DNA of 64,000 nt from Mobula hypostoma (lineage: Eukaryota): positions 42,534,001 to 42,598,000 of the forward strand of contig NC_086097.1 of assembly GCF_963921235.1 (NCBI RefSeq), written 5' to 3'. Positions 345-61,000 of this stretch are shown here, one piece after another (position 1 is the first letter of the stretch; each line of letters opens with the position of its first letter). Position numbers and translations under genes: made by a program. The notes below the pieces were generated by a model. That model had not been told where the DNA came from. It worked only from the letters and a program-made list of their open reading frames with translations, and did not search any database.

Positions 345-1249
345 TGTTGGTGCTGATCTTAAAGGGAGTGAATAAAAGAGGGGAGCATTGGACACTGAAG
401 TCAGGTTTCCACAGGAACACCTTCTACCTTGCCAATATACTTCAATTTACAGAATCTCCCACTAAATGTGAACTTTGGCAGAATCTGATATGGGCATGAA
501 GGAATGGAGTACACCCTCTCTTACACCATGGTATGTAACTCTCTGTTTATCCATGTCCTGAGTCAAATTTACTCCAGCTTGCTTCATTGTTTCATCTTCA
601 GTCAAATATTGCTACTTCAAGATTATCTATTTCATACTTCCACTGATCTGCACAGATATTGTAAAAGATTTTGCTCTTATTGTCTCTTATGTTAGAGTGT
701 GCCCCATCTGGTTGTTCATGATATCTCACCATTTCATCATTGTACTTAGTATGTTCAAGATGGAAAACTGCTTTGTTTGATATGCCTCCATAGCAAAGCT
801 TCTTCCATTTGAACATCTTGGAGTTGCTGATATCATCTGGAGGAGCAAATGTAAGAAGTGTTTAGGTGCACACTTTAACATTCACAAATCCATTTTCCTT
901 TATTAAAGAATTAGTTTCAAATGGAATACTTAATCTAGCAATTATCGGTATACTCGCTAACTACAGATCAGACAGATACTAGATTTCTCCCAGTTTCGGC
1001 AAATTTGCCCTTTACATAAGAAGAAAGCCAACAAATTAAAATGCAGCAACATACAAAGCACTGAAGGAATTCAGCATTTATTGATGCTGCCAGTCTTGAC
1101 CCAAAACATTAACTGTCCATTTCCCTCCATTGGTGCTGCCTGATCTGCTAAGTTCCTTCAATAAGTTTGCCTTCAATCTGTGGCTTGCTCCATATTCTGC
1201 TCTGTCTTGTATCACCAACAGATTAACATGATGTTCTCTTAGTTCAGGT

Positions 1250-2518: not shown

Positions 2519-2590
2519 TTAATGGGTTGAGGAACAGATGTCTGGGAGAATCAAACTTTTCTCCCAGCCATCTGTTCCTCAACCCAATAA
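2519..2590. repeat. Near-perfect ~70-bp hairpin, MITE-like
   Basis: TTAATGGGTTGAGGAACAGATGTCTGGGAGAA pairs with TTCTCCCAGCCATCTGTTCCTCAACCCAATAA (32 bp, 2 mismatches, 8-nt loop). Confidence 0.9.
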
Positions 2591-4149: not shown

Positions 4150-6510
4150 CTCTATGATCACGTGGCAGGGGGACGGGAAGCAGAATGACAGGGCTGAGGA
4201 TGGGACAGTTGGTATACAAGTCAATGCACTGGCTAGTGAGACAGTGAGGATGGACAGGCAGATGACAGAGCATAATTACAGTCTGTGGGATGAGCTGAAC
4301 TGTAACATGGGGGCAAAATCAAAAAGGAAGACACCTGTAAGACTGAATGTGTTATATTTGAATGCACGCAGTATGCAGAATAAGGTAGATGATCTTATAG
4401 CACAGTTCGAGATTATGACGTTGTGGGCATCACAGTGAGTCATAGCTGAAAGAAGATTATAGGTGGGAGCTTAACATCCGAGGATACACATTGTATCAAA
4501 AGGACAGGCAGGTAGGCATAGGGGGTGGGGTGGCACTGTTGGTAAAAAATGAAATCAAATCCTTAGAAAGAGGTATCATATGATAAGAAGATGCAGAATC
4601 CTTGTGGGCAGAGTTAAGAAACGGCAAAGGTAAAAAGACCCTGTTGGAAGTTATATACAGGCTTTCGAAAAGTAGCCAGGATGTGAGATATAAATTACAA
4701 CAGGAGATAGAAAATGCATGTGAAAAGGACAATGTTACAATAGTCATGGAGAATTTCAATAATCAGATAGAGTGGGAAAATCAGGTTGGTACTAGATCCC
4801 ATGAGAGGGAACTTGTAGAATGTCTATGAGATGGCTTTTTAGAGCAGCTTGTGGCTGAGACCACTAGAGGAATGACAATTCTGGATTGTGTATTATGTAG
4901 TGAACCAGATTTTATTAGGGAGCTTAGGGTAGTGAGACCCTTAGGAGGCAGTGATCATAATATGATAGAATTCACCCTGCAGTTTGAGAGGGAGAAACTA
5001 AAGTCAGATGTGTTAGTATTACAATAGACTAAGTAGAATTACAGAGGCATGAGACAGGAGTTGGAAGAGGACACTATCATGGAAGACAGCTAAACAGCAA
5101 TGGCTTGAGTTTCTGGGAGCAATTCAGAAGGCACAGGATAGATATAGTACATCCCAAAGATGAAGAAGTATTCAAAAGGAAGGATGAGGCAACCATGGCT
5201 GACAAGGGAAGTCAAAGACAGCATAAAATCAAAAAAGAAGGTATATGACAGAGCAAAAATTAGTAGGAAGGCAGAGGATTGGGAAGTTTTTAAAAACCAA
5301 TGGAAGACAATTAAAAAAGCCACAAAGAGAGAAAAGATGAACTATAAAGGTAATCCAGCCAAATATATAAAAGAAGATACCAGAAGTTTTTCTCAGATAT
5401 ATAAAGAGTAAGAAAAGAGGCAAGAGTGAATATTGGACCAATGGGAAATGATGCTGGAGAGATAGTAATAGGAGACAAAGAAAAAGCAGATGAACTTCAT
5501 AAGTATTTTGATTTTGTATGAGTCTTCACACTGGATGGCACTTTCAATATGCCAGAAATTTGAGATCGGGGTTAGAGGTGAATGTAGCTGCTATGCCTAA
5601 GGAGAAAGCTGAAAGGTCTGAAGGCTGATAAGTCACCTAGACCAGATAGACTACACTCAAGGGTTCGGAAAGAGATACAGCAGCTGAAAAAATTGTGGAG
5701 GCATTCGTAATGCTCTTTCAAGAATCACTAGATTCTGGAATGGTTCTAGAGGAGTGGAAAACTACAAACGTAACTCTACTCTTGAAGATGGGAGAAAGGC
5801 AGAAGAAAGGAAATTATAGGCCACACACACAAAATGCTGGAGGAACTTAGCAGGCCAGAAAGCACCCATGGAAAAAAGAACAGTCGACGCTTCAGGCCAA
5901 GACCCTTCGGCAGGATGCTGCTGGCCTGCTGAGTTCCTCCAGCATTTTGTGTGTGTTGCTCAGATTTACAGCATCTGCAGATTTTCTCTTGTTTGAAATT
6001 ATAGGCCAGTTAGCCTGACTTCAATGGTTGGGAAGATTATCAAGGATAAGGTATCAGGGTTCTTAGAGACACACAATAAAGTAAGCCAAAGTTAACACAG
6101 TTTACAAAGGGAAGATCTTACCTGACAACCCTGTTGGAATTCATTGAGGAAATAAGAGACAGCACATACAAGGAAAGTTAGTAGATGTTGTTTACTTTGA
6201 TTTTCAGAAGGTTTTTGACAAGGTACCACACATGAGACTGCTTAACAAGTTAAGACCCCAATGTAATTACAAGAAAGATGCTCGCAGAAGATTGGCTGAC
6301 TGGCAGGAGGCAAAGAGTGGGAATAAAGGGGATCTGTTCTGGTTGGTTGCTGTTCTGGTGTGCCACAGAGGTTGGTGTTGGGACACCTTCTTTTCAAGTT
6401 AAATGTCAACGATTTGGATGACGTAATTGATCGTTTTGTGACCAGGTTTGGTGATAAATAGAAGATAGGGGGACGGGCAGGTCGTGTTGAGGAAAGAGAG
6501 AGTCTGCAGA
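4150..6510 (+). mobile_element. CR1 LINE fragment (APE endonuclease and RT, decayed)
   Basis: LNVLYLNARSMQNKVDDL (APE start), WAELRNGKGKKTLLEVIYR, QPWLTREVKDSI, and DFQKVFDKVPH-type RT motif near 6195-6235. Confidence 0.9.
5824..5994. mobile_element. 171-bp PLE-derived fold-back mini-element inserted in CR1
   Basis: TSD GAAATTATAGGCCA at 5810-5823 and 5995-6008; inverted arms 5824-5857 and 5921-5955; decayed hammerhead on the minus strand at ~5882-5915. Confidence 0.85.
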
Positions 6511-8436
6511 AGGAGATTACATATAGAGAAATAAGTGGGGGAATGGGACAGGCGGGGATGTTCTAAGACTCAATGCCCAATTGGCCTCTAGCCACGCTTG
6601 AGAAAACATGAGATAATAAATGTCAGAATGACGCCCAGAAGATGAATCACTGCAGTGCTGAGGCAAATAAAAATCTTCCAGCATTTTCCTAATTATGCGC
6701 AGCTAAGCTTGTCGTTATTAATTTTTACAATTTGGTAATAAAGGTCCTTTTTTCCATTTCTGACTGCACCTAATGATGTCGGGAATACTTCTCCCAGCAG
6801 GTCTCATCAAACATTGTACAATATCCCAATTAACAGAATCAAAATTCCACTAAATTGCAGATAAACATGTTTATTGCTTAAAATGCTAATTAAATAAATA
6901 ATGTTTGGAGGTTGAGAATAGGCAGCTGCTGCTTTTTTGTGTAATTAGACAAACAGAGTAAAGGAGCTTGTCAGCTGCTGCCCTGGACTTCCCATTGAGC
7001 TGTATCCCTATAGGACTGTAACTAGGGAAGAAGTCACTGCATTCATAACTGAGTGAATATTCGCATCAATATGTTCATGGATGAATTGGAGGCAGGAGAG
7101 GATTTATGACTTACTTACCACAAAAGGAGGAAGATACATGCAGTCCCTCACTGGCACACAATGAATGGATCCCATCTGCCCCATTTTCTCTCCTTATTTG
7201 CCCTGCAAGTTGTTCTCTCTCACACACACCTCTCAATTCCCCTATTGATTCTTTTGTCACTTACTTAATGTAGGAGCAAACTGAAAGATCACACGGAGTT
7301 GGTGCTCAGAATAACAGGTGACTTATTAAGAAAACTGGTGACCTCCAAGAGACCAGTCAAAACTGATCAACCTGAGCATGAATTGATACAGCTTTTACAT
7401 TCTCAGTTGATGGCATTACCAAAAAAAAACTACATTTTGGTAACAGAATGGTGGTTACAGAAATTCTTAATTAAGTAACATACTAGGTCCTAATTACAGA
7501 ATGCAATGATTATCCTTAGGTCTGCTAGTAAATCCAATTTTCTGTTACAACAATGGATGCACGTAATAACGTTCTGTAATTAATGAAATGTCTGAAACTT
7601 GCATGCCATGTGTCTACTTCTAGGCTTTGTCTATAGTTCCCTGTTACCACATCGGCACAATCTACATCCCAATTTACTGGCTAAAAACCCTTACTATTCT
7701 TACCCCTCCAGCATGACACTGAGGTGCGGTAAACCTACAGCAACCAATTAATCCAAAATGTATTTTTGTGGTATGGGACGAAACCCATCAGAGACTTGGG
7801 AAATCACAAGAAGGATACGTAGACATGTCAGGGTCGAACCCAGGTCCCTGGATCTATGAGGTGGTAGAGCTAACTGCTCAGTCACCATTCAGTTAGATAT
7901 TGGACCAAACCTTCTGAGGGTTTGCCAGCAGCTACCACTGTCACTGTTGGCACTTATAGATCTTTCTGGCCAGAAGACAGCCACGCAGGTGAAGCACTTT
8001 CCCTGTCTGGCTCTTGTTCATCTTTCTGTAGATCTGCCTACAAATCTGAGCTCTCTCTAGACCACAGCTCCAAGTGGAAGCTCCTGAGCCTTAAGATGGC
8101 TGACAAGTTCTACTGCTGGGGTTTCTGAATACTGTAGTGCTGGTATGAAGAAAGTGGTATCACAGGTTTTCCAGTTGCCACAGTTACTCAGTCCCAGGTT
8201 TTCTTCAAGGAGTTTCCAGCCTTACATATGGGCTTTGTCCTGCGTGTTCTATATTTATGATGATTATGAAGACACACAGTCCTCGTTTATTGCCATTTAG
8301 TAATGCATGCATTAAGAAATGATACATTATTTCCTCCCAAACAACAGGAATTCTGCAGATGCTGGAAATTCAAGCAACACACATCAAAGTTGCTGGTGAA
8401 CGCAGCAGGCCAGGCAGCATCTGTAGGAAGAGGTGC

Positions 8437-8472
8437 AGTCGACGTTTCAGGCCGAGACCCTTCGTCAGGACT
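8437..8472 (-). ncRNA. Minimal type I hammerhead ribozyme motif, intact core
   Basis: Minus strand reads AGTC CTGACGA A GGGTCTCGGCCT GAAA CGTC GACT: stem I AGUC/GACU, CUGANGA, stem II, GAAA, GUC cleavage triplet. Confidence 0.85.
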
Positions 8473-9899
8473 AACTGAAGGAAGAATGAGTAAGGGATTT
8501 GAAAGTTGGAGGGGGAGGGGGAGATCCAAAATGATAGGAGAAGACAGAAGGGGGAGGGATAGAACCAAGAGCTGGACAAAGGAGTTGCGTAGGGAGCGAT
8601 CCCTGCGGAATGCAGAGGGGGGCGGAGGGAAAGATGTGCTTAGTGGTGGGATCCCGTTGGAGGTGGCGGAAGTTACGGAGAATAATATGTTGGACCCGGA
8701 GGCTGGTGGGGTGGTAGGTGAGGACCAGGGGAACCCTATTCCTATTGGGGTGGCGGGAGGATGGAGTGAGAGCAGATGTACGTGAAATGGGGGAGATGCA
8801 TTTAAGAGCAGAGTTGATAATGGAGGAAGGGAAGCCCCTTTCTTTAAAAAAGGAAGACATCTCCCTCGTCCTAGAATGAAAAGCCTCATCCTGAGAGCAG
8901 ATGCGGCGGAGATGGAGGAATTGCGAGAAGGGGATGGTGTTTTTGCAAGAGACAGGTTGAGAAGAGGAATAGGTTTCACTAGGAATAGGGTTCCCCTGGT
9001 CCTCACCTACCACCCCACCAGCCTCCGGGTCCAACATATTATTCTCCGTAACTTCCACCACCTCCAACGAGATCCCACCACTAAGCACATCTTTCCCTCC
9101 CCCCCTCTCTCTGCATTCCGCAGGGATCGCTCCCTACGCAACTCCCTTGTCCATTCGTCCCCCCCATCCCTCCCCACTGATCTCCCTCCTGGTACTTAAC
9201 CGTGTAAGCGGAACAAGTGCTACACATGCCCTTACACTTCCTCCCTTAACACCATTCAGGGCCCCAAACAGTCCTTCCAGGTGAGGCAACACTTCACCTG
9301 TGAGTCGACTGGGGTGATATACTGCGTCCGGTGCTCCCGATGTGGCCTTTTGTATATTGGCGAGACCCGACGCAGACTGGGAGACCGCTTTGCTGAACAT
9401 CTATGCTCTGTCTGCCAGAGAAAGCAGGATCTCCCAGTGGCCACATATTTTAATTCCACATCCCATTCCCATTCTGACATGTCTATCCACGGCCTCCTCT
9501 ACTGTAAAGATGAAGCCACACTCAGGATGGAGGAACAACACCTTATATTCCGTCTGGGTAGCCTCCAACCCCTTGGCATGAACATCGACTTCTCTAACTT
9601 CCGCTAAGGCCCCACCTCCCCCTCGTACCCCATCTGTTACTTATTTTTTATGCACACATTCTTTCTCTCACTCTCCTTTTTCTCCCTCTGTCCCTCTGAA
9701 TATACCTCTTGCCCATCCTCTGGGACCCCCCCCCATCTTTCTTCCCGGACCTCCTGTCCCATGATCCTCTCGTATCCCCTTTTGCCTATCACCTGTCCAG
9801 CTCTTGGCTCTATCCCTCCCCCTCCTGTCTTCTCCTATCATTTTGGATCTCCCCCTCCCCCTCCAACTTTCAAATCCCTTACTCACTCTTCCTTCAGTT

Positions 9900-9935
9900 A
9901 GTCCTGACGAAGGGTCTCGGCCTGAAACGTCAACT
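9900..9935 (+). ncRNA. Minimal hammerhead ribozyme motif (core intact, one stem I mismatch)
   Basis: AGTCCTGACGAAGGGTCTCGGCCTGAAACGTCAACT. Confidence 0.78.
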
Positions 9936-10559
9936 GCACCTCTTCCTACAGATGCTGCCTGGCCTGCTGTGTTCACCAGCAACTTTGATGTGTGTTACAT
10001 TATTTCCTCCAGTGTGATATCACAAAACACAGGACAAACCAAGACTGAAAAAACTGACAAAACCACATAATTATAACAGATAGTTAGAACAGTGCACAAT
10101 ACCATAACTTGATGAAGAAGTTCGTGAGCACAGTAAAGTTCCAAGTTTCTCAAATGTCCCACATCTCACGCAGACGGGAGAGGGAAGAAAAACTCTCCCT
10201 GCCATGCCGACCACAATCTGACTCTGAGTCATCAGAAAACTTCGAGCTCTGATCAGCTCTCCGACACCGAGTACCCAGCGCCATCTCTGTCCAAGTGATT
10301 CAACCTCCTTCTCGGTCGCCAAAAGCAGGCAAGGCCGGGGATTTTGAGGCCTACCCTCCGAAAGATTCCCGACCACACGGTAACGACAGCAGTGAACGGG
10401 CGTTTCAGAAATTTCTCCAGATGTTCCTCTGTGCTTTCACGTCCATTCTCCATCAAATCAGAATTGTCCACGGCCCCCATTTAACAGATACGATATCATT
10501 TTCACCGGAGAGCTGCTCACGCACGGCGCGCTGCTCTCTCTCCTCCATTTTGATGCAAC

Positions 10560-14384: not shown

Positions 14385-15890
14385 GGGAATAGAGATTACA
14401 AATAGCGTAGATAAAGGGGATGCAGTGGATTTTGCATATTTGGACTTTTTAAAGGCCTTTGACAAGGTGCCACGCATGAGGCTGCTTTTTTGCCACATTT
14501 GCAGATGATACGAAGTAGTTGGTAAGACGTTGGAGTCAATTGTTAAAGGTGAGGTTATGGAGTACTTGGTGACACAGGACAAGATAGGACAACATGAGCA
14601 TGGTTTCTTTAAGGGAAAATCTTACCTGATGAGCCTGTTAGAATTCTTTGAGGAGATTACACATCGGATAGATAAAGGGGATGCAGTGCATGTTGTATAT
14701 TTGGACTTTCAGAAGACCTTTGACAAGGTGCCACACATGAGGCTGCTAACCAAGTCAAGAGTTCATGGTATTACAATGAAGTTACGGGCATGGTTAGAGC
14801 ATTGACTGATTGGTAGGAGGCAGAGAGTAGGAATAAAAGGATCCTTTTCTGGTTGGCTGCAAGTGGCAAGTGGTGTTCCGTAGGGGTCAGTGTTGGGACC
14901 ACTTCTTTTTATGCTGTAGATCAATGATTTAGAATGGAATAGATGACTTTGTTGCTAAGTTTGCAGATGATATGAAGATTGGTGGAGGGGCAGGTAGTAT
15001 TGAGGAAAAAGTAGGCTGCAGAAGGACTTAGACAGATTAGGAGAATGGGCAAGAAAGTGGCAAATGAAATATAATGTTGGAAAATGCATGGTCAGGCACT
15101 TTGGTAGAAGAAATAAATGTGCAGGCTATTTTCTAAACGAGGAGAAAATCAAAAAATCTGCAATGCAAAGGGACTTGGGAGTCCTTGTGCAGAACACCTT
15201 AAAGGTAAACTTGCAGATTGAGTTGGTGGTGAGGAAGGCAAATGCAGTGTTAGCATTCATTTCAAGAGGTCGAGAATATAAGAACAGGGAAGTGATGCTG
15301 AGGCTTTATAAGGCACAGGTGAGGCCTCACCTAAAGTATTGTGAACAGTTTTGTGCTCCTCATCTAAAAAAAGATGTGCTGGCATTGAAGAGGGTCCAGA
15401 GGAGGTTCACAAGGATGATTCTGGGAATGAAAGGGTTATCATACAAGGAACGTTTGATGGCTCTGGGTCTGTACTCACTGGAATTTAGAAGGATAAAGGG
15501 GAATCTCTTTGAAACCTTTCAAATGTTGAAAGGCCTATACAGAGTAGATGTGGAAAGAATGTTTCCTATGGTGGGGGAGCCTAGAGCAAGAGACCACAGC
15601 CCCAGGATAGAGGGGCATCCATTTAAAACAGAGATGCAGAGAAATTTCTTTAGCCAGAGGGTGGTAAATTGTGGAACTTGTTACCAGAGATAGCTGTAGA
15701 GGCCAGGTCATTGGGTGTGTTTAAGGCAGAGCTTGATAGGTTCTTGATTGGACACGGCATCAAAGGTTACGGGGAGAAGTCCTGGGAGTGGGGCTGAGGA
15801 GGGGAAAAAAGGATCACCCATAATTGAATGGTGGAGCAGTCTTGATGGGCCAAATGGCCTATTCCTGCTCATATGTCTTATGGTCTTATA
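14385..15890 (+). mobile_element. CR1 LINE, 5'-truncated (RT C-terminal half), preceded by a short duplicated RT segment
   Basis: VVYLDFQKTFDKVPHMRLL, KFADD, VRPHLKYCEQF and RNFFSQRVVN (ORFs 14530-14805 and 15064-15693); (TCTTATGG) tail. Confidence 0.92.
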
Positions 15891-23340: not shown

Positions 23341-25516
23341 ATTGTCACCCTTTTGAAGCAGGTGAGAACCACCAACTACACCAGTGAGATATTGAAGATG
23401 TTCTTGAACTCCCAACAGTTGGTTGGCACAGGTTTTTGGTGCCTGAAATGTGTACGAAGAAAGTTATTTCCAATGAACTCTTCCTAGGGAATTTCTTCCA
23501 CTGAAATATCTGCAGAGTCCCTTGAGGAAACCAAAGACTACTTTTCCAAGTTTCTTCAGCTCTCCATTGTTAAAGATCATCCAGTTAAATTTCCATAATG
23601 TCTGGTAACAACTTGACAGGTTTATTGCCTGCTATTTCCTACTAGGTTAAGATCCACGAATGAAAAACCTGATAGGGAATCATTCCAATGGTGCAATTTT
23701 ACACCACTGCCGACAGTTAACTTTGATTGATGTGACCTCAGAGTACGTTTACCCTGAATTCCTCCAGTCAAGGATTCCAAAATGTGACAATTATGTTAAG
23801 TTCATTTCAAAATACCTTTTATTTTCTTAGAGAAAACATAAGGTGATATTTGGTAATAAAGGTTAATATTTCCAGCTTGTATATTGAAACTAAATTTAGA
23901 AAGACCTCCTTTTGCACATCAACATATTTAATAGACGACTCCATGGGCAACAATGTTACCTTAATTATTTTAGTTTTCAAGTACTACACTTGTTCTTGGC
24001 AAATAATATTAATTCAGGAGAAGTAATTCAGTAATTATTTTAAGTGAATTGATTTTCTTCCCTTTATTCCCACAGATGCTTCCCTCTGCCACTTGGCACC
24101 TTCCTGTTGAAAGCACAGGTGCTCAGAGGTCTAAGTTCCTCCACGGTTTGTCAACTTCATTCTATGACTGCCCAATCAAAAATATATTTCTGATGAGATA
24201 GCACAACTGTGTGGTGCTCCTTGTCCATCCTCAACTCAAGAAGGTGTATTCCATTAAACTGGGAGGGTATTATAGCCAAGGCAACAGAATTGAATCCCAG
24301 TCAGTGGTAGGTGCTTTTGATTGCCAGTCTGTCTGCACAGATCCACCCACAGCTCCCTCCAAGCAGTGTTCTGCTCCCTGTTAAATTAAAGCCCTTGAAT
24401 TATTCTCAAAAGCTACATGCTTAGTATTACTAGACTGTATAATTAATGAAAAAGCAAGACATAGTTTGAATGCCAATTCATTAGAGCAGGTAAAGGTCTC
24501 AAGAGCTGGCTTGCCTATTAAGTCTGATAGCCTCAAATACACAACAAAGAACAAGATCACTTAAGCTATAATTTTTGCTTGTTTTTGAAGATATTGGTTT
24601 ATAAATATAAAGAACGGGGTTATTTATACACAGGCAGAATCATAAAAAAATTACTTGGAAAGGAGAAGATTTGTCTGCACATCGATGATCTATTGCCCTC
24701 CACTGGATAACATTTGTATAAACTGTTTAACACACAATACCATGTATGCATCCACCAAGCAAAATTTCTCAATGTTCACGGCTCTAGTAGCAATTTTGGA
24801 CACCAGAAAACATAACGAGCATAGACAATCCAAAAATTATTGTCATAGGGTCCACCATGCTGGATATATAGAATGATAATTTGGCAAGAAGTAATTTCAA
24901 ATAACTCTATTATCAAATGCTTAACACAATGATTGATGCATCTTAATGCATGTATATATGTGCAGGCTAAGTTGTTTCCCAAAACTTAAAAGGAATCTAT
25001 TGATTATTTTAGCTCTAACATTCTAACTTCTCCAATTTAGTTTGCAGACCTAATGAGATTGAAACCTACAACCTTCTACAAAAATAGTTGTACTTCACTG
25101 ATCTTCCAAGGTTGTGAAAGTCACTGTAAAAATGAAGTCTTCCTTTTCTTTTCTGTTCCTGTCTATAGGTTTGAGGCCACTTCTCCACCAGCTGCACTTC
25201 TCAATGACAATCTGTTTAATTTTTTTTTTCATTAGCTATTAGCCATTTTGATTTAAGGCATCGCACAAAATTTCTGGTGTTTTTATGAATAGAAAGTTCG
25301 TAAACCTGAGTCCTGAACTTTCTCAGGACCTAACTTTTCACAGGAAATTACACAACATGGTTTGCCATTGATTCCTGCATTTCCAGTTGGTTTTAAAGGA
25401 GTTTTTTGAGGCTTAAAAAATTTGAATACTGAGGTACACAGTGGCAGATCTAGAATAATTTATAGCAGAGAGATATATATATTCACATAGCTTGTACCCG
25501 GAAATTTGGCGAGAAG

Positions 25517-28739: not shown

Positions 28740-29392
28740 CATTGTCTGCCAGAACAAGTGGGATTTCCCAGTGGCCACCCACTTTAATTCCACTTCCCAC
28801 TCCCGTTCCAATATGTCCATCCATGGCCTCCTCCACTGTCGCGATGAGGCCACTCTTAGGTTGGAGGAACACCACCTTATATTCAGTCTGTGTAGTCTCC
28901 AACCTGATTTCTCAAACTTCTGGTAATACCCCCACCTCTGCTTCACCATTCCCCATCCCCTTTTCCCACTCTCACCCTATCTCCTTGTCTGCCCATCGCC
29001 TCCCTCTGATGCTCCTTCCCCCCTTTTCTTTCTTCCATGGCCTTCTGTTCTCATCTATCACTCTTCTCCTTCTCCAGCCAACTTCCCAGCTCTTTACTTC
29101 ATCCCTCCCCCTTCAGGTTTCACCTATCACCTTTTGTTTCTCTCGCCCCTCCCCTCACCTTTTAAATCTACTCCTCGGCTTTTTTTCCTCCAGTTCCACC
29201 CAATAGTCTCTTTTTTTTTATTAAGTGCAATCATGAACAATAGCCAGATCAGAAGTGCTGATCAAGTCAACTAGTTCCCAAAGAGAACTCTGATAGGCCA
29301 ATCAAATAGTTTGATCAGCCAATCAGCCCAAAACGTCGACTGCTCTCTTTTCCATAGATGCTGCCTAGCCTGCTGAGTTCCTCCAGCAGTTT
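28740..29392 (+). mobile_element. Older PLE 3' fragment (GIY-YIG end and terminal repeat)
   Basis: Homologous to 9410-9990 (GATTTCCCAGTGGCCACCCACTTTAATTCC...TTGGAGGAACACCACCTTATATTC); partial hammerhead tail AAAACGTCGACTG at ~29330. Confidence 0.8.
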
Positions 29393-39902: not shown

Positions 39903-41257
39903 AACACACAAAAAATACTGGTGGACGCAGCAGGCCAGGCAGCATCTCTAGGAAGAGGTACAGTCAACGTTTCGGGCCAAGACCCTTCGTCAAGACTAAC
40001 TGAAAGAAAAGATAGTAAGAGATCTGAAAGTGGGAGGGGGAGGGGGAGACCTGAAATGATAGGAGAAGACAGGAGGGGGAGGAATGAAGCTAAGAGCTGG
40101 AAAGTTGGTTGGCAAAAGGGATACAGAGTTGGAGAAGGGGAAGGATCATGGGAAGCCTAGGGAGAAAGAAAGGGGGAGGGGAGCACCAGAGGAAAATGGA
40201 GAGCAGGCAACCCCTTTCTTGATCCATTTCCAACACCTCCCTCCCCTTTCTTGATCTTTCTGTCTCTGTCTCTGGAGACAGCTTATCTGCTGATGTCTAC
40301 TATAAGCCTACGGACTCTCACAGCTATCTGGACTATTCCTCTTCCCACCCTGTCTCTTGCAAAAACGCCATTCCCGTCTCGCAATTCCTTCGTCTCCACC
40401 GCATCTGCTGTCAGGATGAGGCTTTTCATTCCAGAATGAAGGAGATGTCCTCCTTTTTTAAAGAAAGGGGCTTCCTTTCCTCCACCATCAACTCTGCTCT
40501 CAAACGCATCTCTCCCATTTCATGCACATCTGCACTCACTCCATCCTCCCGCCACCCCACTAGGAATAGGGTTCCCCTGGTCCTCACCTATCACCCCACC
40601 AGCCTCCGGGTCCAACATATTATTCTCCGTAACTTCCGCCACCTCCAACAGGATCCCACCACTAAACGCATCTTTCCCTCCCTCCCCCCGTCTGCTTTTC
40701 ACAGGGATCGCTCCCTACGCAACTCCTTTGTCCATTTGTTCTCCCCCCATCCCTTGCCACCGATCTCCCTCCCAGCACTTATCCGTGTAAGCGTAACAAG
40801 TGCTACACATGCCCTTACACTTCCTCCCTCACCACCATTCAGGGCCCCAGACAGTCCTTCCAGGTGAGGCAACACTACACCTGTGAGTCAGCTGGGGTGA
40901 TATACTGCGTCCGGTGCTCCCAATTAGTCCTTCTATATATTGGTGTGACCCAACACAGACTGGGAGACCGCTTCGCTGAACACGTACACTCTGTCCGCCA
41001 GAGAAAGCAGGATCTCCCAGTGGCCACACATTTTAATTCCACGTCCCATTCCCATTCTGATATGTCTATCCATGGCCTCCTCTACTGACAAGATGGAACC
41101 ACACTCAGGTTGGAGGAACAACACCTTATATTCCGTTTGGGTAGCCTCCAACCTGATAGCATGAACATCGATTTCTCTAACTTCCATTAATGCCCCTCCT
41201 TCCCTTCATACCCTATCATTCATTCATTCATTCATTTATTTATTTATTTTTCCTTTT

Positions 41258-41302
<45 letters not shown>

Positions 41303-41662
41303 CTCTCTCTGTCCCTCTCACAATAACTCCTTGCCTGCTCTCCATCCTCTCGGCTTCCCTCCCACTTTCTTTCTCCCTAGGCCTCCCATCCCATGATCCT
41401 CTCCCTTCTCCAGCCTTAGATCCCTTTTACCAATCAACTTTCCAGCTCTTAGCTTCATCCCTCCCCCCCCCATCTTTTCGGATCACCCCCCCCCCTCCCA
41501 CTTTCAAATCTCTTACTATCTTCTTTCAGTTAGTTCTGACTAGGGGTCTCGGCCCGAAACGTTGACTGTACTTCTTCCTATAGATGCTGCCTGGCCTGCT
41601 GTGTTCCACCAGCATTTTGTGCGTCTGCTTGAATTTCCAGCATCTGCAGATTTCCTCATGTT
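39903..41662 (+). mobile_element. Neptune-type PLE with an inverted 5' terminal repeat
   Basis: TSD TAAATTTGCAGAC at 39890-39902 and 41663-41675. Inverted repeat at 39903-40210. RT end (LPFLDL..YYKPTDSHSYLDYSSSHP), Cys linker and GIY-YIG (ORF 40864-41088). Mutated hammerheads at 39962-39997 (-) and 41532-41567 (+). Confidence 0.92.
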
Positions 41663-43020: not shown

Positions 43021-43029
43021 AGCCTTCTC

Positions 43030-44667: not shown

Positions 44668-45405
44668 CACCAACAAGAGAAAACCTGCTGGTGCTGGAAA
44701 TCCAAAGCAACATACACAAAATGCTGGAGAAACTGAGCAGGCCAGGCAACACCTATGGAAAAGAGTAAGTTGTCATGGTTTAGAGCTGAGACCCTTCAGC
44801 AAGACTGGAAAGGAAAGGGGAAGAAGTCAGAATAAGAAGGTGGGCAGGGAGAAGGAAGAAGTACAAGGTGGCAGGTGATAGGTGAAATCAGAAGAGGGGA
44901 GGGGTTGAAGCAAAGAGCTGGGAAGTTGATTGGTGAAAGAGATGGGGCTGGAGAAGGAGGAACCTGATAGAAGAGGACAGAAGAGCCTTAAACAAAGAGA
45001 TGGGGGAGGAGCACTAGAGGGAGATGATGGGCAGGTAAGAAGAGAAGATGTGAGAGGGAAATACAAATGGGAATTGGTGAAGGACAGGAGGTCAGAGAAG
45101 TACGAGCAATCAATGTTCATGCCATCAGGTTGGTGGCTACTCAAGCAGAATATGAGGTGTTGCTCCTTTAACATGAGTGTGGCCTTATCGTGGCAGTAGA
45201 GGAGGCTATGGACTGACATGTCAGAATAGGAATGGGAAGAAGAACCGAAATGGGTGGCCACCAAGAAATCCCACTTTTTGAGGCAGACAGAACAAAGATA
45301 TTCAACGAAGCAGTCTCCCAATCTACGTTGGGCCTCACTAATATACAGATGGCCACACCAGGAGCACAGGATACAATAAATGACCCCAACAGACTCACAG
45401 GTGAA
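44668..45405 (-). mobile_element. Older Neptune-type PLE 3' fragment
   Basis: GDCFVEYLCSV..VATHFGSSSHSYSDMSVHSLL..EQHLIF (ORF 44827-45321); decayed terminal repeat. Confidence 0.85.
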
Positions 45406-45419
45406 GATGGACAGTCATA

Positions 45420-48504: not shown

Positions 48505-51500
48505 AGAATCAGAATCCGGTTTATTATCACTGGCATGTGTCGTGAAATTTGTTAACTTATTAGCAGCAGTTCAATACAATACATAATCCAGCAGAGGGGG
48601 AAAAATAATAAATAAAATATAATAATAAATAAGTATATCAATTACAGTGTACATATATTGAATAGTTAACAAAATGTGCAAAAACAGAAATGCTGTATAT
48701 TACATGTCTATCCACGGCCTCCTCTACTGTAAAGATGAAGCCACACTCAGGTTGGAGGAACAACACCTTATATTCCGTCTGGGTAGCCTCCAACCTGATG
48801 GCATGAACATTGACTTCTCTAACTTCCGCTAGGCCCCACCTCCCCCTCGTACCCCATCTGTTACTCATTTTTATGCACACATTCTTTCTCTCACTCTCCT
48901 TTTTCTCCGGCTGTCCCTCTGAATATACCTCTTGCCCATCCTCTGGGTCACCCCCCCCCTTGTCTTTCTTCCCGGACCTCCTGTCCCATGATCCTCTCGT
49001 ATCCCCTTTTGCCTATCACCTGTCCAGCTCTCGGCTCTATCCCTCCCCCTCCTATCTTCTCCTATCATTTTGCATCTCCCCCTCCCCCTCCAGCTTTAAA
49101 ATCCCTTACTCACTCTTCCTTCAGTTAGTCCTGACAAAGGGTCTGGGCCTGAAACGTCGACTGTGCCTCTTCCTATAGATGCTGCTTGGCCTGCTGCGTT
49201 CACCAGCAACTTTGATGTATGTTGCTGTATATTACGTTTGTAAAAAAAAAAGTGAGGTAGTGTCCAAAGATTCAATGTCCATTTAGGAATCAGACGGCAG
49301 AGGGGAAGAAGCTGTTCCTGAATCGCTGAGTGTGTGCCTTCAGGCTTCTGTACCTGCTTCTTGATGGTAACAGTGAGAAAAGGGCATACACTGGGTGCTG
49401 GGGGTCCTTAATAATGGACGCTTCCTTTCTGAGAAACTGCTCCTTGAAGATGTCCTGGGTATTTTGTAGGCTAGTATCCAAGATGGAACTGACTAGATTT
49501 ACAATCCTCTGCAGCTTCTTTCGGTCCTGTGTAGTAGCTCCTCCATACCAGACAGTGATGCAGCCTGTCAGAATGTTCTCCATGATACAACAATAGATGT
49601 TTTTGAGTGTATTTGTTGACATGCCAAATCTCTTCAAACTCCTAATGAAGTATAGCTGCTGTTTTGCCTTCTTTATGACTACATCGATATGTTGGGACCA
49701 GGTTAGATCCTCCGAGATCTTGACACCCAGGAAATTGAAACTGCTCACTCTCTCCACTTCTGATCCCTCTATGAGGATTGGTATGTGTTCTTTCGTCTTA
49801 CCCTTCTTGAAGTCCACAATCAGCTCTTTCGTCTTACTGAATTTGAGTGCCAGGTTGTTGCTGTGGCACCACTCCACTAGTTGGCATATCTCACTCCTGT
49901 GCACCCTCTCGTCACCACCTGAGATTCTACCAACAATGGTTGTACCGTCAGCAAATTTATAGATGGTACTTGAGCTATGCCTAGCCACACAGTCATGTGT
50001 ATATAGAGAGTAGAGCAGTGGGCTAAGCACACACCCCTGAGGTGCGCCAGTGTTGACCATCAGCGAGGAGAATATGTTATCACCAATCCGCACAGATGTG
50101 GTCTTCTGGTTAGGAAGTCAAGAACCCAATTGCAGAGGGATGTATAGAGGCCCAGGTTCTGCAACTTCTCAATCAGGATTGTGGGAATGATGGCATTAAA
50201 TGCTGAGCTATAGTCAATGAACAGCATCCTGACGCAGGTGTTTGTGTTGTGCAGGTGGGCTAAAGCCGTGTGAAGAGCCATTGAGATTGCATCTGCAGTT
50301 GACCTATTGTGGTGATAGGCAAATTGCAATGGGTCCAGGTCTTTGCAGAGACAGAAGTTCAGTCTAGTTATGAACTAGACTAGTTCAGTCTGGCCGTTGT
50401 TTGGCACACCAAGGGTCTGGCCTGACAGCCTGGCTCAAATTCAAAAGCCTAAGATCTCAGGGCTCTGAAGACAGGCAGATCAAGGGTCGGTGTCATGACA
50501 GGACACCCGTGTGTCGTCGGGGGAGACAGGATATCTGCCGTGGGCCCAAAGACCTGGGATCTTTGCGATCTTCGGGCACAGAGCTCAAAAAAGCAACGTA
50601 ACGGACTTTTAACATCGTAAACCAGTGAGTTGTTTGTTATGTCTCCCCACTCGCTGGGAAAATGGAGACACCTTTTTCTCCCTTATTAGGGAGAGGGAAA
50701 ATCTGTGGTTTGTCGATGCAGGGTGTAACACAAAGACTTTGGGGTTACTGCAAGTCTGTGTCTTTGCTATTGCTTTGCTCACGCTTGAAGTGCTTGGTGA
50801 CGGTGCTGATACCTGCTTTTTTTTTGCCAGTGGGGGAAGGGGGGGCTTGTTGCTCACTGCCACTTCTGTGCGGCGAGGGAGCTGGGGGGGGGGACTTTGG
50901 GGTTCTCACGTCTAACTGTCATTCATTCTTTGGGGCACTTCTCCGTTTTCATGGATGTTTGCGAAGAAAAAGCATTTCAGGATGTATGTTGTATACATTT
51001 CTTTGACATTAAATTGGACCTTTGAACCTTTGACCTTCGAACCAACCTCTCAAAGCATTTCGTCACTGTCCATGTGAGTATTACTGGGCGATAGTCATTA
51101 AGGCAGCTCACAATATTCTTCTTAGGCGCTGGTATAATTGTTGCCTTTTTGAAGCAAGTGGGAACTTCTGCCCATAGCAGTGAGAGGTTGAAAATGTCCT
51201 TGAATACACCCGCTAGTTGGTTGGCACAGGTTTTCAGAGCCTTACCAGGTACTCCATTGGGACCTTCCACCTTGCAAGGGTTCACTCTCTTTAAAGACAC
51301 CCTAATATCAGCCTCTGAGACGGAGATCATAGCGTCATCAGGTGCAGCAGGGATCTTCACAGCTGTAGTTGTGTTCTCAACATAGAAGGTGTTGAGTTCA
51401 TCTGGTAGTGAAACATCGCTGCTATTCATGCTATTGAGTTTCGCTTTGTGGCAAGTAATGTCTTGCAGACCCCACCAGAGTTGCCGTGCATTCAATATCG

Positions 51501-51620
51501 CCTCCAACCTCCTTCGAAATTGCCTCTTCGCCCTTGAGATAGCCCTCTGTAAATCATACCTGGTTTTCTGGTACAGGCCTGGGTCACCAGACTTGAATGC
51601 CACAGATCTAGCCTTCAGAT
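48505..51620 (-). mobile_element. Rex1/Babar LINE with most of the RT, carrying two nested insertions
   Basis: ORFs 50977-51645 (CLNDYRPVILT), 50060-50329 ([17 protein letters not shown]) and 49290-50093 ([27 protein letters not shown]). Confidence 0.93.
48704..49222 (+). mobile_element. 5'-truncated Neptune-type PLE inserted in the Rex1 3' UTR
   Basis: TSD TGCTGTATATTAC at 48691-48703 and 49223-49235; hammerhead at 49127-49162 with CTGACAA (core G>A). Confidence 0.9.
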
Positions 51621-55580: not shown

Positions 55581-57117
55581 TGACAATTAACAGTTCTATT
55601 CCACTACAAGTTCCTTATTCCCCATTATAATTTTTCTGCCTCTGTCTCAGAAAGTTTATTAATCTTTTCTTGCTGATGTATTATCAAATTCTACCTTTTT
55701 TCTCCCTCTTTAACAATTTTTTTGAAATCCTTTGTTAATCTTCAAAATCCTCCAAATCCTCCACTCATAACATTGAAATCCTGCTTCAAATCCAATATTA
55801 CTTAACATTTGTGCTTAGAAATTGCTGAACCACTTCTCTGGTGGAATTTTTATCAAACCACATTAGGGACACCAAATATGATTATAAGGCAAACTTGACA
55901 CCATCAACTTTTGTTTCAGCCCACTGAAGAGCAGCACTCTAAAAAAGAAGGCCCCAACATTCCAAGCACCACAGGATGTAACACAAACTTTGTGGTTAAA
56001 TGGTCCTGACCTAAATTGGAACGTCAGTTTAAATGAGTTGAGAGGATAGAGTGCAGGTGGAGGAGAAAATAAAAAACTCAGTGCTAGAAGTATATAAGAG
56101 AAGAATCATGAAGTTTATGAGTAGGTCAACAAACCCATCTAAATTTCATGCAGTTTGAAGTCATTCTAAGATGAGTAGAATGCCATCAATGAAAATTTAA
56201 TAAAACAGGTTAAATCTTGATTAGAGTGGTTCTGTTGCACTTTGAATATATAGTCTCCATATCACTATACAACTCCATTAATCAGACAGACTTGGCAATT
56301 TGGTAGTGCCAAACCAACAGATTTTCTGGACTATTGAATGTTAATGTAAACACTTTTTTAATTACCTTTTGCTCAAATGTTATCTGGTAGAATGTTCCAG
56401 TGAAGTTGCTAAGGAAACAAGGGCCTGGTAGGCTTCAAGGGAGCATGGTACAGGATCAAATGCATTCCAAGAGAGTGTGGAAAGTAAAAGAGAGAGCACA
56501 GAAACCAAAGCCCCAGTAAGCTTAAAGAGAGTGCTGTGGATGAGGATCCAGTGAGCTTAAAGGGAGCATGAGAGTCAGGGCCTTCAGTATTTAAAAGAAG
56601 GCGTGGGAATCCACACCCTGGTGAATCCCAGGAAAGCACAAGAGCCAAGGCCCTGTAAGTGACAACGGAATATCGGGAAAAGGGCCCCAGTGAATTCGAA
56701 GGGGGTGCAGGAATCAGCATCCTGTTAAGTTGTAAAGGATCACAATAAACATCATCTGATGGGCCTAATACTGAATCTTCAGGATTTCCCAACAGTTGGA
56801 TAGTGGATTATCAGAGTTTTATATTAAAAATAAACCCAAGAAGGAGCTTGAAATGTTAAGTATCAAGAATAAGAGAAAAAGAGATAAGTCTCCATTGGCA
56901 TTTCATTTTGAACTTAACATGATGAAAGTTTGTTTAGTCTGGAGCAACATTTTATAACAGTAACATTTTCTACTATGAATGAATTCCAATACCTATACTT
57001 CAACATTTTAACAATAATTGAAGTGGGAACAATAAAATAATTGTACTAGCATTCAAGACCCACATTAAAGTTGCTGGTGAACGCAGCAGGCCAGGCAGCA
57101 TCTATAGGAAGAGGTAC

Positions 57118-57153
57118 AGTCGACGTTTCAGGCCGAGACCCTTCGTCAGGACT
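57118..57153 (-). ncRNA. Minimal hammerhead ribozyme motif, intact core
   Basis: Identical to the motif at 8437-8472. Confidence 0.85.
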
Positions 57154-58006
57154 AACTGAAGGAAGAGTTAGTAAGAGATTTGAAAGTGGGAGGGGGAGGG
57201 GGAGATCCAAAATGGTAGGAGAAGACAGGAGGGGGAGGGATGGAGCCAAGAGCTGGACAGGTGATTGGCAAAGGGGATATGAGAGGATCAGGGGACAGGA
57301 GGTCTGGGGAGAAAGACAAGGTGGGGGGGGGGAACCCAGAGGATGGGCAAGGGGTATAGTCAAGGGACAGAGGGAGAAAAAGGAGAGTGAAAGAAAGAAT
57401 GTGTGTATAAAAAAAAATAACGGATGGGGTATGAGGGGGAGGTGGGGCATTAGCAGAAGTTAGAGAAGTCGATGTTCACGCCATCAGGTTGGAGGCTACC
57501 CAGATGGAATATAAGGTGTTGTTCCTCCAACCTGAGTGTGGCTTCATCTTTACAGTAGAGGAGGCCGTGGATAGACATGTCAGAATGGGAATGGGGTGTG
57601 GAATTAAAATGTGTGGCCACTGGGATATCCTGCTTTCTCTGGCGGACAGAGCATAGGTGTTCAGCAAAGCAGTCTCCCAGTCTGCGTCGGGTCTCGCCAA
57701 TATATAGAAGGCCACTTCGGGAGAACCAGACGCAGTATATCACTGACTGGGGTGATATACTGCATCCGGTGCTCCCAAAGTGGCCTTCTATATCTCCCTC
57801 TAACTATACCACTTGCCCATCCTCTGGGTTCCCCCCCACCTTGTCTTTCTCCCCAGACCTCCTGTCTCATGATCCTCTCATATCCCTTTTGCCAATCACC
57901 TGTCCAGCTCTTGGCTCCATCCCTCCCCCTCCTGTCTTCTCCTACCATTTTGGATCTCCCCCTCCCCCTCCCACTTTCAAATCTCTTACTAGCTCTTCCT
58001 TCAGTT

Positions 58007-58042
58007 AGTCCTGACGAAGGGTCTCGGCCTGAAACGTCCACT
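58007..58042 (+). ncRNA. Minimal hammerhead ribozyme motif (core intact, one stem I mismatch)
   Basis: AGTCCTGACGAAGGGTCTCGGCCTGAAACGTCCACT. Confidence 0.78.
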
Positions 58043-61000
58043 GTACCTCTTTCTATAGATGCTGCCTGGCCTGCTGCGTTCACCAGCAACTTTTATGTGT
58101 GTTGCTTGAATTTCCAGCATCTGCAGAATTCCTGTTGTTAGCATTCAAGACCACTGGTTTTGACAAAATGGGTGAGAAACAATGAACTGTAACTAGAAAA
58201 AAAGGTATGAGAATGATAAGTGAAAAAAATTAAAGATTTATTACAACTATAATGTCTGTATTGTAAAATAGATGAATAACATATAAATCTAAATATAAGG
58301 AATTGAATAAGATTAAGGAAAAAAATAATTTAGAGCTATAATTGTTTGAAAGGACCTTAAGAAATTGATATAAGATGTGCAAAATCAAATGGACATCCAT
58401 AATAACATCTCCCAGTATCTACTGCTCTTAACCTTAATGCTAAACCATTTGTTTTAAAGACATCATTTGCAACAGAAAAGTAGACGACCTTCCACGCAAC
58501 ATTCTATAGGGAAAAAATCAAGCAAAGGAAACGTTCATTGAAAATTCAGACCCGATCCTTAAAGTAAAGAGAGAATGGAACCTGAATAGCAAATGAAGAG
58601 AGTGCATAAGCCAGCTGGATTTTGGAAGAAACTTTTCAAAGCTTCTTAGACACAGGAAAGATGCCAGAGGAAAGAAAAACTAATGTAATCATGATCTTTT
58701 AGAAAAGAAGATTAGAGAAATGATGTGTGAAACACCGGCTTGTAAATTTGGTACATGTAAAGGAGAAAAACACTGGATTAAGATTGGAATCGATTTTAGC
58801 CTGGAAATGTTGAATCTAGCTAACTTTACAGCAGGTGGTGATAGTTGAGATAAATATATACAATGGAAAGAACCTTATCGATAGCAAAGTGGCATCAACG
58901 TAGCAGTTCGCATTTGTAGATGACAAGCAGGAGAGGTCAGCTGATCCATGGAGACTGCTCCATACTCACCATGGCTGGAGCCCTTGAGTAAATATTTCCT
59001 AAGATCACCTCAGTTGTTTCCAGGAATATTTCAAAGGATTATTTCAAAAAAATAAAAAGATTTGACCTAAATCCCCTTACAATAACCAATGCAAGGTAAA
59101 AATCCATCAGAAAATGTTTCTTTGAAGCAAACAACCTTGAAATTCAAATTTGATGGGACCACAGAGCTCTCAACTATACAGTTCAATATCATCAATATCA
59201 TGCATAGCATGTTTAACACTCCAAAAAAGGAATTAATTTATTGGCAAATATCACATGTCAGGCCTTAAGTAAGTGTAACAATTATGTGGAGAAATTTGTC
59301 AGCCAAAATGACTAACATCATTATTTAAAATGACTTGACTTCAAGTTTAATACCCTAAACTGTTGGCTTATTTCACTATTGCCCCTCTCTTTGAACTAAA
59401 GGTGTGACAGGATTGCAGGTGTTCGAATGGAATGACTCACTGGACAGATACATTGCATTTAATAGTGAGCTGTTTACAAAATGACCAAATCTGAAAATTT
59501 ACCCCTTCACTGACTTTAAACTAACATAGGAAGTGAATTTCAACATACTGAGGTCAATATTAACGGCCATTATTTGGTGCTAATATACCATCAGTACCCT
59601 CGAAATGGATTGATGACTACAAAACCCCATTACACCAACAGCTCCATTTTGAAAGGTGTGTAACACTAAATGTCCAACACAGTAACCCATTTTGGACACA
59701 CTGAAAATTAGAATTAAAGTCCAATGACAAAAATAAGGATCAGACTCATTTCTATTTTTGCCCAGAACTTCTGGCCCATACAGGAACTGTAAAATTATCT
59801 GGGCCACTATTACTAAAGATTCATACAGTATCTCAAATTAAACTCCCACCCTGCAGTCTACATTCAGGGACCAATCCACCAAAATATATAGCGAAGATTG
59901 TCTGGCACCTCCACAAGTCATCTGTCAAAATTTCAGTGAGATCAGTCTCAAAAATCATAGACACTTGAGTCAACACAAACTTTGTCCATTTCTGACCAAA
60001 CATAGCACTTGGGATCCTATTAATGTTTAGACCCCTGAACTTACACTTCAAGTGGGACTATTTAATAGAAGTAAACATGCATGGGGACATTTGATGGATG
60101 ATTCTTTCAAAGTGAATCCTGTTCACTCACCAGCAGGTGTTCACTCACTCCTGTTCACTCACTCACTCATTAACAGGTAGTACAAATAAAGACCCAGTTT
60201 TGATGTAGTTTCCTGCCAGATTTTAAAAATAGAAACTGACTGTGGTATCCACTGCTTTAGACTGAACAATGCACTATTGCTTCTTGGAAAGTTCAATAGC
60301 TGCAAGATTATAAATTATGTGGTTTTCCCCTCCAGTAAGATTCTCCAAGAGATAGGGAGTTTTCTGAAGATTAAAGTTACATAGATCAGAAAATATTATC
60401 TCCCTTATGGGATAATCCTTCAGTTTAGATCATGAAGAAGGCTTATTTTGACTCTGGGCAAAGAAAGAATATAACACCCTCGAGATATGTTTGAAGCTAA
60501 CAGATGTTCTTCAGCCAAAGGAAAAATATTGCATTTGCATCAGCATTTGAGATCCATAGCTTCAGAAAGTCTTTGAAAAGCCTTAGGCAGAGGCTTTGTA
60601 CTTACGGGTTTAAATGCTTTTTTCATAATCTTCTAAAAGTGTCCTGATTCTGTGCAAGGTAAATGGCTTGCCAAATACTAAGGGTTTTAATGTTGCTTAA
60701 GAATTCATGAGATTCAATGAAATGGAGGGGTTATTGAAAGATCCATATGAATGGTCAAATTTGAGAGATAGTAAAACATGGTTAAAGACCCACTTGTGCA
60801 AAGTAAGAGAGAGAAAAAGATAAGGTTAGAAAGTTTACCTACTCAGTGAGACCATTGCTTTCAACCAGACTATAAGAATTACTACATAAAAATACTTTTT
60901 AAAATATATAAATTAATAAAAATCCAACTTTGAAAATGACTTGTGAGTAAATTTCTGATCACAAAGCCTCTTGGGAACTGATTGAACTCAGATATTCAAG

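What the first reader, a model, noticed from the sequence alone, without database searches (positions are those of the whole stretch)
8437..8472. Family of minimal hammerhead ribozymes in the Neptune PLE terminal repeats
Seen: a 36-nt motif with the full hammerhead core, AGUC-CUGACGA-A-GGGU(CUCG)GCCU-GAAA-CGUC^GACU. It is intact at 8437-8472(-) and 57118-57153(-), has an intact core at 9900-9935(+) and 58007-58042(+), and is mutated at ~5882-5915, 39962-39997, 41532-41567, 49127-49162 and ~44770-44808. Stem II varies between GGGU/GCCU and GGGU/GCCC, so pairing is preserved. Stem III is reduced to the self-complementary ACGU. Known: PLEs carry minimal hammerheads whose palindromic stem III lets them cleave as dimers. 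Inference: these motifs processed the retroelement RNA, and at this density (>=9 per 64 kb, both strands) they could also cleave host pre-mRNA. The class is known; whether this family is described cannot be determined here.
Basis: partly seen in the sequence, partly recalled or inferred. Interest (0 to 1): 0.72.

Follow-up and report, generated by a model that had tools for sequence, protein, structure and literature searches.

The report
Jumping-gene hammerheads, mostly silent
The 36-letter motif is the already known minimal "hammerhead" self-cutting RNA motif at the end of a Penelope-type jumping gene, present in tens of thousands of intact copies in this genome; the copies show that the element's RNA was copied without being cut there, and the scattered copies likely do not cut host RNAs.

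Summary
Observation confirmed: all nine sites exist, and the genome holds 62,581 exact-core matches (control 0). The motif lies 293 nt past the stop of an RT + CX4CXXC + GIY-YIG ORF (a 1,016-aa open copy exists), so it is the minimal type I hammerhead of a Neptune-type Penelope-like element, a class described in 2014 (PMC4209133). New member of a known kind.

The host-cleavage idea is not supported: intact same-strand copies lie at least 5.7 kb apart, half of the motifs have a head-to-head partner that would bury them in double-stranded RNA, and the active dimer is predicted to lose to an inactive hairpin. GCCU/GCCC is one-sided and CpG-type, not covariation.

Extras: 93.9% of copies run through the cut site against 94.2% for a control step; a lineage with the core change A6C reached 6,885 matches; 5' ends pile up at the motif's front edge. 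So cutting is likely not needed for spread. The scan noted this family, and these extras, many times before in this and other genomes.

The parts
8437..8472 (-). Minimal type I hammerhead, intact (stem I 4 bp, CUGACGA, extra A, stem II 4 bp with G.U and U.G, GAAA, ACGU palindrome, predicted cut between 8441 and 8440)
8339..9996 (.). One Penelope-like insertion with two head-to-head arms: left arm 8339-8972 (-, internally deleted, ends with the ~35-nt tail), right arm 8977-9996 (+, no tail); flanked by a 14-bp target duplication (8325-8338 and 9997-10010)
9200..9607 (+). C-terminal ORF remnant: CX4CXXC linker and GIY-YIG endonuclease (Pfam PF01541, E 1.1e-4)
9900..9935 (+). Hammerhead copy, core intact, G1.1 changed to A; inverted partner of the 8437 copy
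57118..57153 (-). Hammerhead copy, intact
58007..58042 (+). Hammerhead copy, core intact, G1.1 changed to C; inverted partner of the 57118 copy
57058..58139 (.). Second two-armed insertion, tail on the right arm only, 13-bp target duplication
49127..49162 (+). Young copy, G8 changed to A; end of a 525-bp 5'-truncated insertion (48702-49226)
39962..39997 (-). Decayed copy (C3 to U, C17 to U); inverted partner of the 41532 copy
41532..41567 (+). Decayed copy at the end of the longest element remnant (about 40223-41626, RT C-terminal part to endonuclease)
5882..5917 (-). Copy with C at core position 6 (A6C lineage), in a short fold-back (5819-5915 minus arm, plus arm from 5914)
44771..44806 (-). 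Old copy, also C at core position 6; endonuclease remnant upstream (45097-45406)
29323..29392 (+). Partial old copy lacking the first half of the core
1093..1167 (+). Partial old copy lacking the first half of the core

Best explanation
The motif is the minimal type I hammerhead in the terminal repeat of a very abundant Neptune-type Penelope-like retrotransposon, and it is predicted to cut only weakly, as a pair or with the element's own protein, so the copies scattered through the genome are likely silent passengers. Shown: it sits 293 nt after the ORF stop and about 100-135 nt before the element's two 3' ends; in a tandem copy it also lies about 140 nt before the start codon. Every new insertion begins 3' of the motif and copies through it, which is why it is the most numerous part of the element. 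The templates were almost always uncut at this site. Inferred: the source elements kept the motif under selection for a long time, probably for occasional protein-assisted processing of tandem transcripts or as part of the RNA structure bound by the protein; cutting is not a required step, since a lineage with A6C multiplied. Inferred: single genomic copies fold into an inactive hairpin (GACG of the core pairs with CGUC at the cut site) or into long double-stranded RNA with their inverted partner.
For: Element: open ORF of 1,016 aa with RVT_1 (E 6.8e-6) and GIY-YIG (E 2e-4), CX4CXXC linker and CxxC between the VIY and YIG motifs; tandem motif-ORF-motif copy with 3,516-bp spacing in 1 of 20 long-ORF loci; 3' ends at about +99 or +134; target duplications at 13 of 13 inverted pairs and 12 of 27 solo copies against 12 of 150 random intervals. 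Motif class: same features as min-HHR in PMC4209133. Long-term retention: four flank classes share the 36-mer while the sequence just upstream differs; master-level changes fall on N7, loop II, 11.1 (C/U) and 11.4 (G/A), all compatible with pairing; in the young group non-CpG core mismatches are 4 of 441 against 82 of 2,559 in the 3' flank (p 0.005). Uncut templates: 99,564 of 105,986 anchors extend across the cut (93.9%), control step 101,119 of 107,343 (94.2%); 0 of 53 5' ends at +29..+37. A6C: 6,885 matches against 1,014 for the transition A6G and 100,245 for A6, tied to one flank class (8 of 11 against 0 of 43). Silent copies: monomer hairpin -12.2 kcal/mol each, active dimer -11.1 in all, alternative dimer -32.7; 35-36 of 36 motif bases pair with the far arm in both two-armed window insertions.
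Against: No cleavage assay and no raw RNA reads, so activity is neither shown nor excluded. Nearest-neighbour energies leave out the core's tertiary contacts and any protein help; the anole hammerhead did cut once protein was added (PMC11167929). The core-versus-flank difference is not seen in the two older groups (p 0.066 with more core change, and 0.57), and the young flank includes variation between source elements. The cut step and the control step differ in base make-up, so an excess of 1-2% of copies starting at the cut cannot be excluded. A6C hammerheads keep some activity, good activity in Mn2+ (PMC7151607), and the A6C lineage may have been helped in trans. Neptune rather than Nematis rests on linker and host range, not on a tree with labelled references.
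Confidence: 0.75

Rival explanations
1. The hammerhead is an essential processing step: tandem transcripts are cut (and perhaps circularised) at two motifs, and the product is the template for new copies.
For: Model proposed in PMC4209133. The 36-mer is kept across lineages whose upstream flanks differ. A tandem copy with two same-strand motifs 3,516 bp apart exists. A circle religated at the cut would leave no end at the cut site, so the read-through counts do not exclude it.
Against: No pile-up of 5' ends at the cut. A6C lineage amplified. Core mutants did not affect insertion in vitro for the anole element, and no RNA-seq ends were found at its cut site (PMC11167929). Naiad elements spread without canonical hammerheads (PMC8557442).
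Confidence: 0.15
2. Dispersed copies are active in host transcripts and cut pre-mRNA often enough to matter.
For: About 60,000-70,000 copies keep a full core (62,581 exact matches; 29 of 253 sampled copies intact). Contigs from runs guessed to be RNA hold the motif region in related organisms, though these may include DNA. Trans-dimers or protein help are possible in principle.
Against: Nearest same-strand intact copy 5.7 kb or more away in all 26 of 29 cases with one in the block; 4 of 144 motifs have any same-strand neighbour within 1 kb; 72 of 144 have a head-to-head partner within 2 kb (tail-to-tail control 21) that would mask them. No sign of extra core damage in young copies (4 of 441). 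A single min-HHR showed no cleavage in vitro (PMC4209133).
Confidence: 0.07
3. The motif is no longer a ribozyme at all; it is kept only as a protein-binding, promoter or splice-acceptor structure at the front of the element's RNA.
For: 5' ends pile up at the motif's front edge (12 of 53 within -7..+8, 0.75 per nt, against 0.036 per nt at -165..-27). A branch-point-like heptamer, pyrimidine run and AG end at stem I. The youngest group mostly has G.U at the normally G-C pair 10.1-11.1 (31 of 49).
Against: All the catalytic bases are the majority letter in three of four groups and in the youngest one, which is hard to explain without some selection on catalysis. No GT..AG joint ending at the motif among the 15 of 129 joints shown.
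Confidence: 0.15

Closest known systems
Minimal hammerheads (min-HHR) in the pLTRs of metazoan Penelope-like elements, including Xena, Poseidon and Neptune elements of fishes (Cervera and De la Pena 2014, PMC4209133; parts 1-2 of 4 read, one of the supplement files searched)
   Same: Type I topology, full core, one extra base between 9 and 10.1, short stem I, no loop 3, palindromic 15.2-16.2, position in the terminal repeat, mostly single dispersed copies, some close pairs on opposite strands.
   Different: Copy number (62,581 exact-core matches here against about 4,000 in coelacanth and 9,000 in Xenopus); sequence nearly uniform rather than highly variable; G.U instead of G-C at 10.1-11.1 in the youngest group; an amplified A6C lineage. 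Sharks and rays are not named in the parts read or in the one supplement file that could be searched.
Hammerhead of the anole Poseidon element PAc (Frangieh et al. 2024, PMC11167929; parts 1-2 of 4 read)
   Same: Hammerhead just 5' of two reverse-transcription start points about a tail's length apart; cleavage not needed for insertion there, which fits the uncut templates here.
   Different: In PAc the ORF starts inside stem II; here the start codon lies about 140 nt past the cut. Different clade (Poseidon, no Zn-finger linker). Activity was measured there, not here.
EN+ PLE insertion architecture and Neptune clade (Craig et al. 2021, PMC8557442; passages read)
   Same: 5' truncation, partial tandems, adjacent inverted copy, 30-40-bp tail at one end only, CX2-5CxxC linker, CCHH endonuclease.
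   Different: No strong (TA)n target bias seen in the flanks printed (not counted); many very short two-armed insertions that turn at the hammerhead.
Non-LTR retrozymes (Li et al. 2026 preprint 10.64898/2026.07.22.740005; parts 1-3 of 5 read, supplements closed)
   Same: Type I hammerheads derived from PLE terminal repeats; reported in the one cartilaginous fish sampled.
   Different: Retrozymes are head-to-tail arrays; here only 4 of 144 motifs have a same-strand neighbour within 1 kb.

Membership tests
min-HHR of metazoan PLEs | Core C3 U4 G5 A6 N7 G8 A9 / G12 A13 A14 / A15.1-U16.1 / H17 | tested here: met
   (not met for the A6C lineage)
min-HHR of metazoan PLEs | Extra base between 9 and 10.1 | tested here: met
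   A in 49 of 49 young copies
min-HHR of metazoan PLEs | Palindromic 15.2-16.2, no loop 3 | tested here: met
   ACGU
min-HHR of metazoan PLEs | G10.1-C11.1 pair | tested here: inconclusive
   G-C is the majority in two older groups, about even in the third; G.U in 31 of 49 young copies
min-HHR of metazoan PLEs | Compensatory changes in stems I and II | tested here: inconclusive
   Only one-sided, pair-keeping changes at 10.1-11.1 and 10.4-11.4; no lineage-level two-sided change; one genome only
min-HHR of metazoan PLEs | Located in the pLTR of a PLE | tested here: met
min-HHR of metazoan PLEs | Self-cleavage as dimer or with protein | not testable with these tools
   no assay; only contigs available
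EN+ Penelope-like elements | Single ORF with RT and C-terminal GIY-YIG, CCHH motif | tested here: met
EN+ Penelope-like elements | Tandem or inverted pLTR, one-sided tail, target duplication | tested here: met
Neptune clade | CX2-5CxxC linker between RT and endonuclease (shared with Nematis) | tested here: met
   CX4CXXC; definition from PMC8557442
Neptune clade | RT phylogeny places it with Neptune, not Nematis | not tested
   no labelled references among 120 listed homologs; only Neptune and Poseidon reported in vertebrates
Non-LTR retrozymes | Head-to-tail arrays of short units, each with a hammerhead | tested here: not met
   4 of 144 with a same-strand neighbour within 1 kb; no such array in the window
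Rfam hammerhead families | Match to a covariance model | tested here: not met
   no hammerhead hit at E<=1

The most novel reading that the evidence does not exclude
This genome is a natural experiment showing that a Penelope-like element spreads from uncut RNA and does not need full hammerhead cutting: about 100,000 young copies run through the cut site, a lineage with the crippling A6C core reached thousands of copies, and every two-armed insertion has one arm started at each of the two 3' start points, as expected if a protein dimer primes both cut DNA strands on RNA whose 5' end (or a barrier) lies at the hammerhead's front edge.
Probability: 0.45. Interest if true: 0.5.

Novelty: new member of a known kind. 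Interest (0 to 1): 0.22.

Why it matters
The motif class and its place in Penelope-like elements have been known since 2014, so the finding itself is ordinary. What it adds is scale: tens of thousands of intact cores in one vertebrate genome, several times the published vertebrate counts that I read. That scale lets one ask, from DNA alone, what the hammerhead does for these elements, which PMC8557442 calls unclear. The answer here leans towards 'cutting is not required', matching the one in vitro study. If the dispersed copies did cut host RNA it would matter a great deal, but the evidence points against it.

Tried and rejected
Rfam scan: no hammerhead hit. Folding z-scores of the motif near 0: no support from energy. 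First script timed out with no output. Sequencing runs: no RNA holder listed on record; 22 runs, all contigs, so RNA ends at the cut, strand and expression could not be read; table 6 was empty, which says nothing for contigs. Splicing into the AG at stem I: no GT..AG joint among the 10 joints or the 15 of 129 shown; joints into position +1 come with unknown intervening letters and fit older lineages with another 3' UTR. True covariation: none found at lineage level in one genome. Retrozyme array: rejected. Strand bias in introns: not tested, no gene annotation; whether the window lies in a gene is unknown. Literature: 'Penelope-like' + 'cartilaginous fish' + 'hammerhead ribozyme' gave 0 papers; 'hammerhead ribozymes' + 'A6C' gave 4, none on Penelope elements by title and abstract start; two searches gave nothing on this family by listing. 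Repbase and Dfam could not be searched, so the family may be catalogued there.

Full report
Observation. The 36-mer is at 8437-8472 on the minus strand and at the eight other places listed, with 0 to 11 differences. The core pattern occurs 13 times in the window against 3.6 expected (0 of 100 shuffles reach 13). Read with standard hammerhead numbering (recalled) it is stem I strand AGUC, core CUGACGA, one extra A, stem II GGGU/CUCG/GCCU, GAA, A15.1 C G U16.1, C17, cut, GACU. Rfam has no hit and the fold is no more stable than shuffles. A tight pattern with the full core matches 62,581 times in the 3.48-Gb genome, 0 for the reversed control. In 1.44 Mb of sample (six blocks; I cut 24 kb from one block because it repeated a segment) a profile finds 254 copies, 0 on reversed DNA, 80-230 per Mb by block, which extrapolates to several hundred thousand; 29 of 253 (one dropped for lack of flank) keep core and stems.

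What carries it. The motif follows a GIY-YIG remnant at 9200-9607. A search with the RT-side remnant found a copy with an open frame of 1,041 codons, 1,016 from the first Met, with RVT_1 and GIY-YIG hits, a CX4CXXC linker and a CxxC between the two endonuclease motifs. The closest listed homolog is a bamboo-shark protein at 70%, so the host is likely a cartilaginous fish (inference). Of 20 long-ORF loci, one is a tandem with two same-strand motifs 3,516 bp apart and ten carry an opposite-strand arm facing away from the ORF; in the tandem the start codon lies about 140 nt past the cut. Among 53 young 3' ends, most stop near +99 or +134 from the motif's first base. All 13 inverted pairs have one long and one short arm (p 0.0002 if independent) and a target duplication (13 of 13; solo 12 of 27; random 12 of 150). 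The window's own insertions 8339-9996 and 57058-58139 are such pairs. This is the architecture described for endonuclease-bearing Penelope-like elements, and the linker marks Neptune or Nematis (PMC8557442, passages); only Neptune and Poseidon were found in vertebrates (Li et al. preprint).

Is it kept as a ribozyme? Four groups defined by flanks share the 36-mer although the bases just upstream differ from group to group. Changes common enough to be inherited fall on N7, loop II, 11.1 (C or U) and 11.4 (G or A); all keep pairing, all are one-sided. In the young group the non-CpG core differs at 4 of 441 cells and the 3' flank at 82 of 2,559 (p 0.005); the two large older groups show no such difference. 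So there is modest support for selection in source elements and none for selection on inserted copies.

Was the template cut? Of 105,986 matches that start just 3' of the cut, 99,564 continue five bases across it (93.9%). The next five-base step keeps 101,119 of 107,343 (94.2%). The steps differ in base make-up, so 1-2% excess is possible, but not more than 6%. In the sample 0 of 53 5' ends lie at +29..+37, while 12 lie at -7..+8 (0.75 per nt against 0.036 per nt further upstream). A religated circle would also leave no end, so this does not exclude the circle model. Second, C at core position 6 occurs in 6,885 matches, against 1,014 for the transition to G and 100,245 for A; it goes with one upstream flank class (8 of 11 against 0 of 43), and six of 30 fetched A6C loci with older-type flanks have endonuclease-coding DNA directly upstream at 71-78% identity to the young protein. 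A6C strongly lowers cleavage in Mg2+ but not in Mn2+ in two other hammerheads (PMC7151607, passages; PMC3088659, passages). The window's 5882 and 44771 copies belong to this type. Together these fit the anole result that core mutants insert normally and that the hammerhead cuts only with protein (PMC11167929).

Could dispersed copies cut host RNA? A min-HHR needs a same-strand partner (PMC4209133). The nearest intact same-strand copy was 5.7 kb or more away; 4 of 144 whole motifs have any same-strand neighbour within 1 kb, while 72 of 144 have a head-to-head partner within 2 kb (tail-to-tail control 21). In a transcript through either two-armed window insertion, 35-36 of the 36 bases pair with the far arm. 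A lone copy is predicted to fold its core onto its cut site (-12.2 kcal/mol); the active dimer scores -11.1 in all, against -24.4 for two such hairpins (no tertiary terms). No RNA-end data were available, so this is a prediction.

Mechanism, committed: reverse transcription starts at one of two points about 100 and 134 nt past the motif's first base and copies through an uncut hammerhead (shown by copy ends); two-armed insertions likely come from priming on both cut strands (inferred); many short copies stop at the motif's front edge, likely an RNA start or a barrier (pile-up shown, cause inferred); cutting is likely an occasional, protein-assisted event in tandem transcripts (inferred from other elements).

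Novelty. The class is published, with Neptune fish elements named, and a 2026 preprint reports related repeats in one cartilaginous fish (its supplements were closed, and one supplement file of PMC4209133 could not be searched). My searches found no paper on this family or on an A6C lineage, but repeat databases were not available. The scan has filed the family 46 times in at least 19 genomes, and the A6C, front-edge and two-arm points before in this genome; these are unchecked notes. The front-edge idea came from them; A6C I had counted before reading them. Verdict: real, new member of a known kind, interest 0.22.

Noticed in passing
window 8473-8500 (-) and the same place in other copies: Directly 5' of stem I the young copies read as a 3' splice site (branch-point-like heptamer, pyrimidine run, CAG, then a second AG that is part of stem I); older groups have different sequence but also a pyrimidine run and CAG. 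PMC4209133 reports an intron ending at helix I in the fly element. The whole strand is pyrimidine-rich, and no GT..AG joint was seen in contigs.
   Followed up: partly
window 5819-5990; nine more pairs in the sample: Short two-armed insertions of 130-255 bp whose arms meet near the hammerhead, each with a target duplication where tested.
   Followed up: partly
L101:7206-7248: One fold-back joint (motif position 2 to position 44, opposite strands) recurs at high depth in contigs of three runs from two organisms; a shared, well-covered locus or a recurring junction.
   Followed up: no
window 35144-36103: Minisatellite, 62-bp unit, 15 copies, 97% matches.
   Followed up: no
window 2520-2589: Near-perfect 70-nt hairpin, weak miRNA-family hits far below gathering scores; likely a small inverted-repeat element.
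   Followed up: no
window 14934-15693, 29503-30567, 49290-51645, 25466-26132: Decayed LINE reverse-transcriptase pieces (RVT_1 hit at 49293-50117, E 1.9e-10), several in inverted orientation to each other.
   Followed up: no
window 42767-43186 (+): Frame ending in a stretch like another Penelope-type ORF (recalled resemblance; no Pfam hit), with a 33-bp duplication; possibly a second family.
   Followed up: no
G000:C1 about 42.753-42.792 Mb (L096-L100): A segment of at least 9 kb with four motif copies is repeated about 30 kb downstream, near a run of N: recent duplication or assembly repeat.
   Followed up: no
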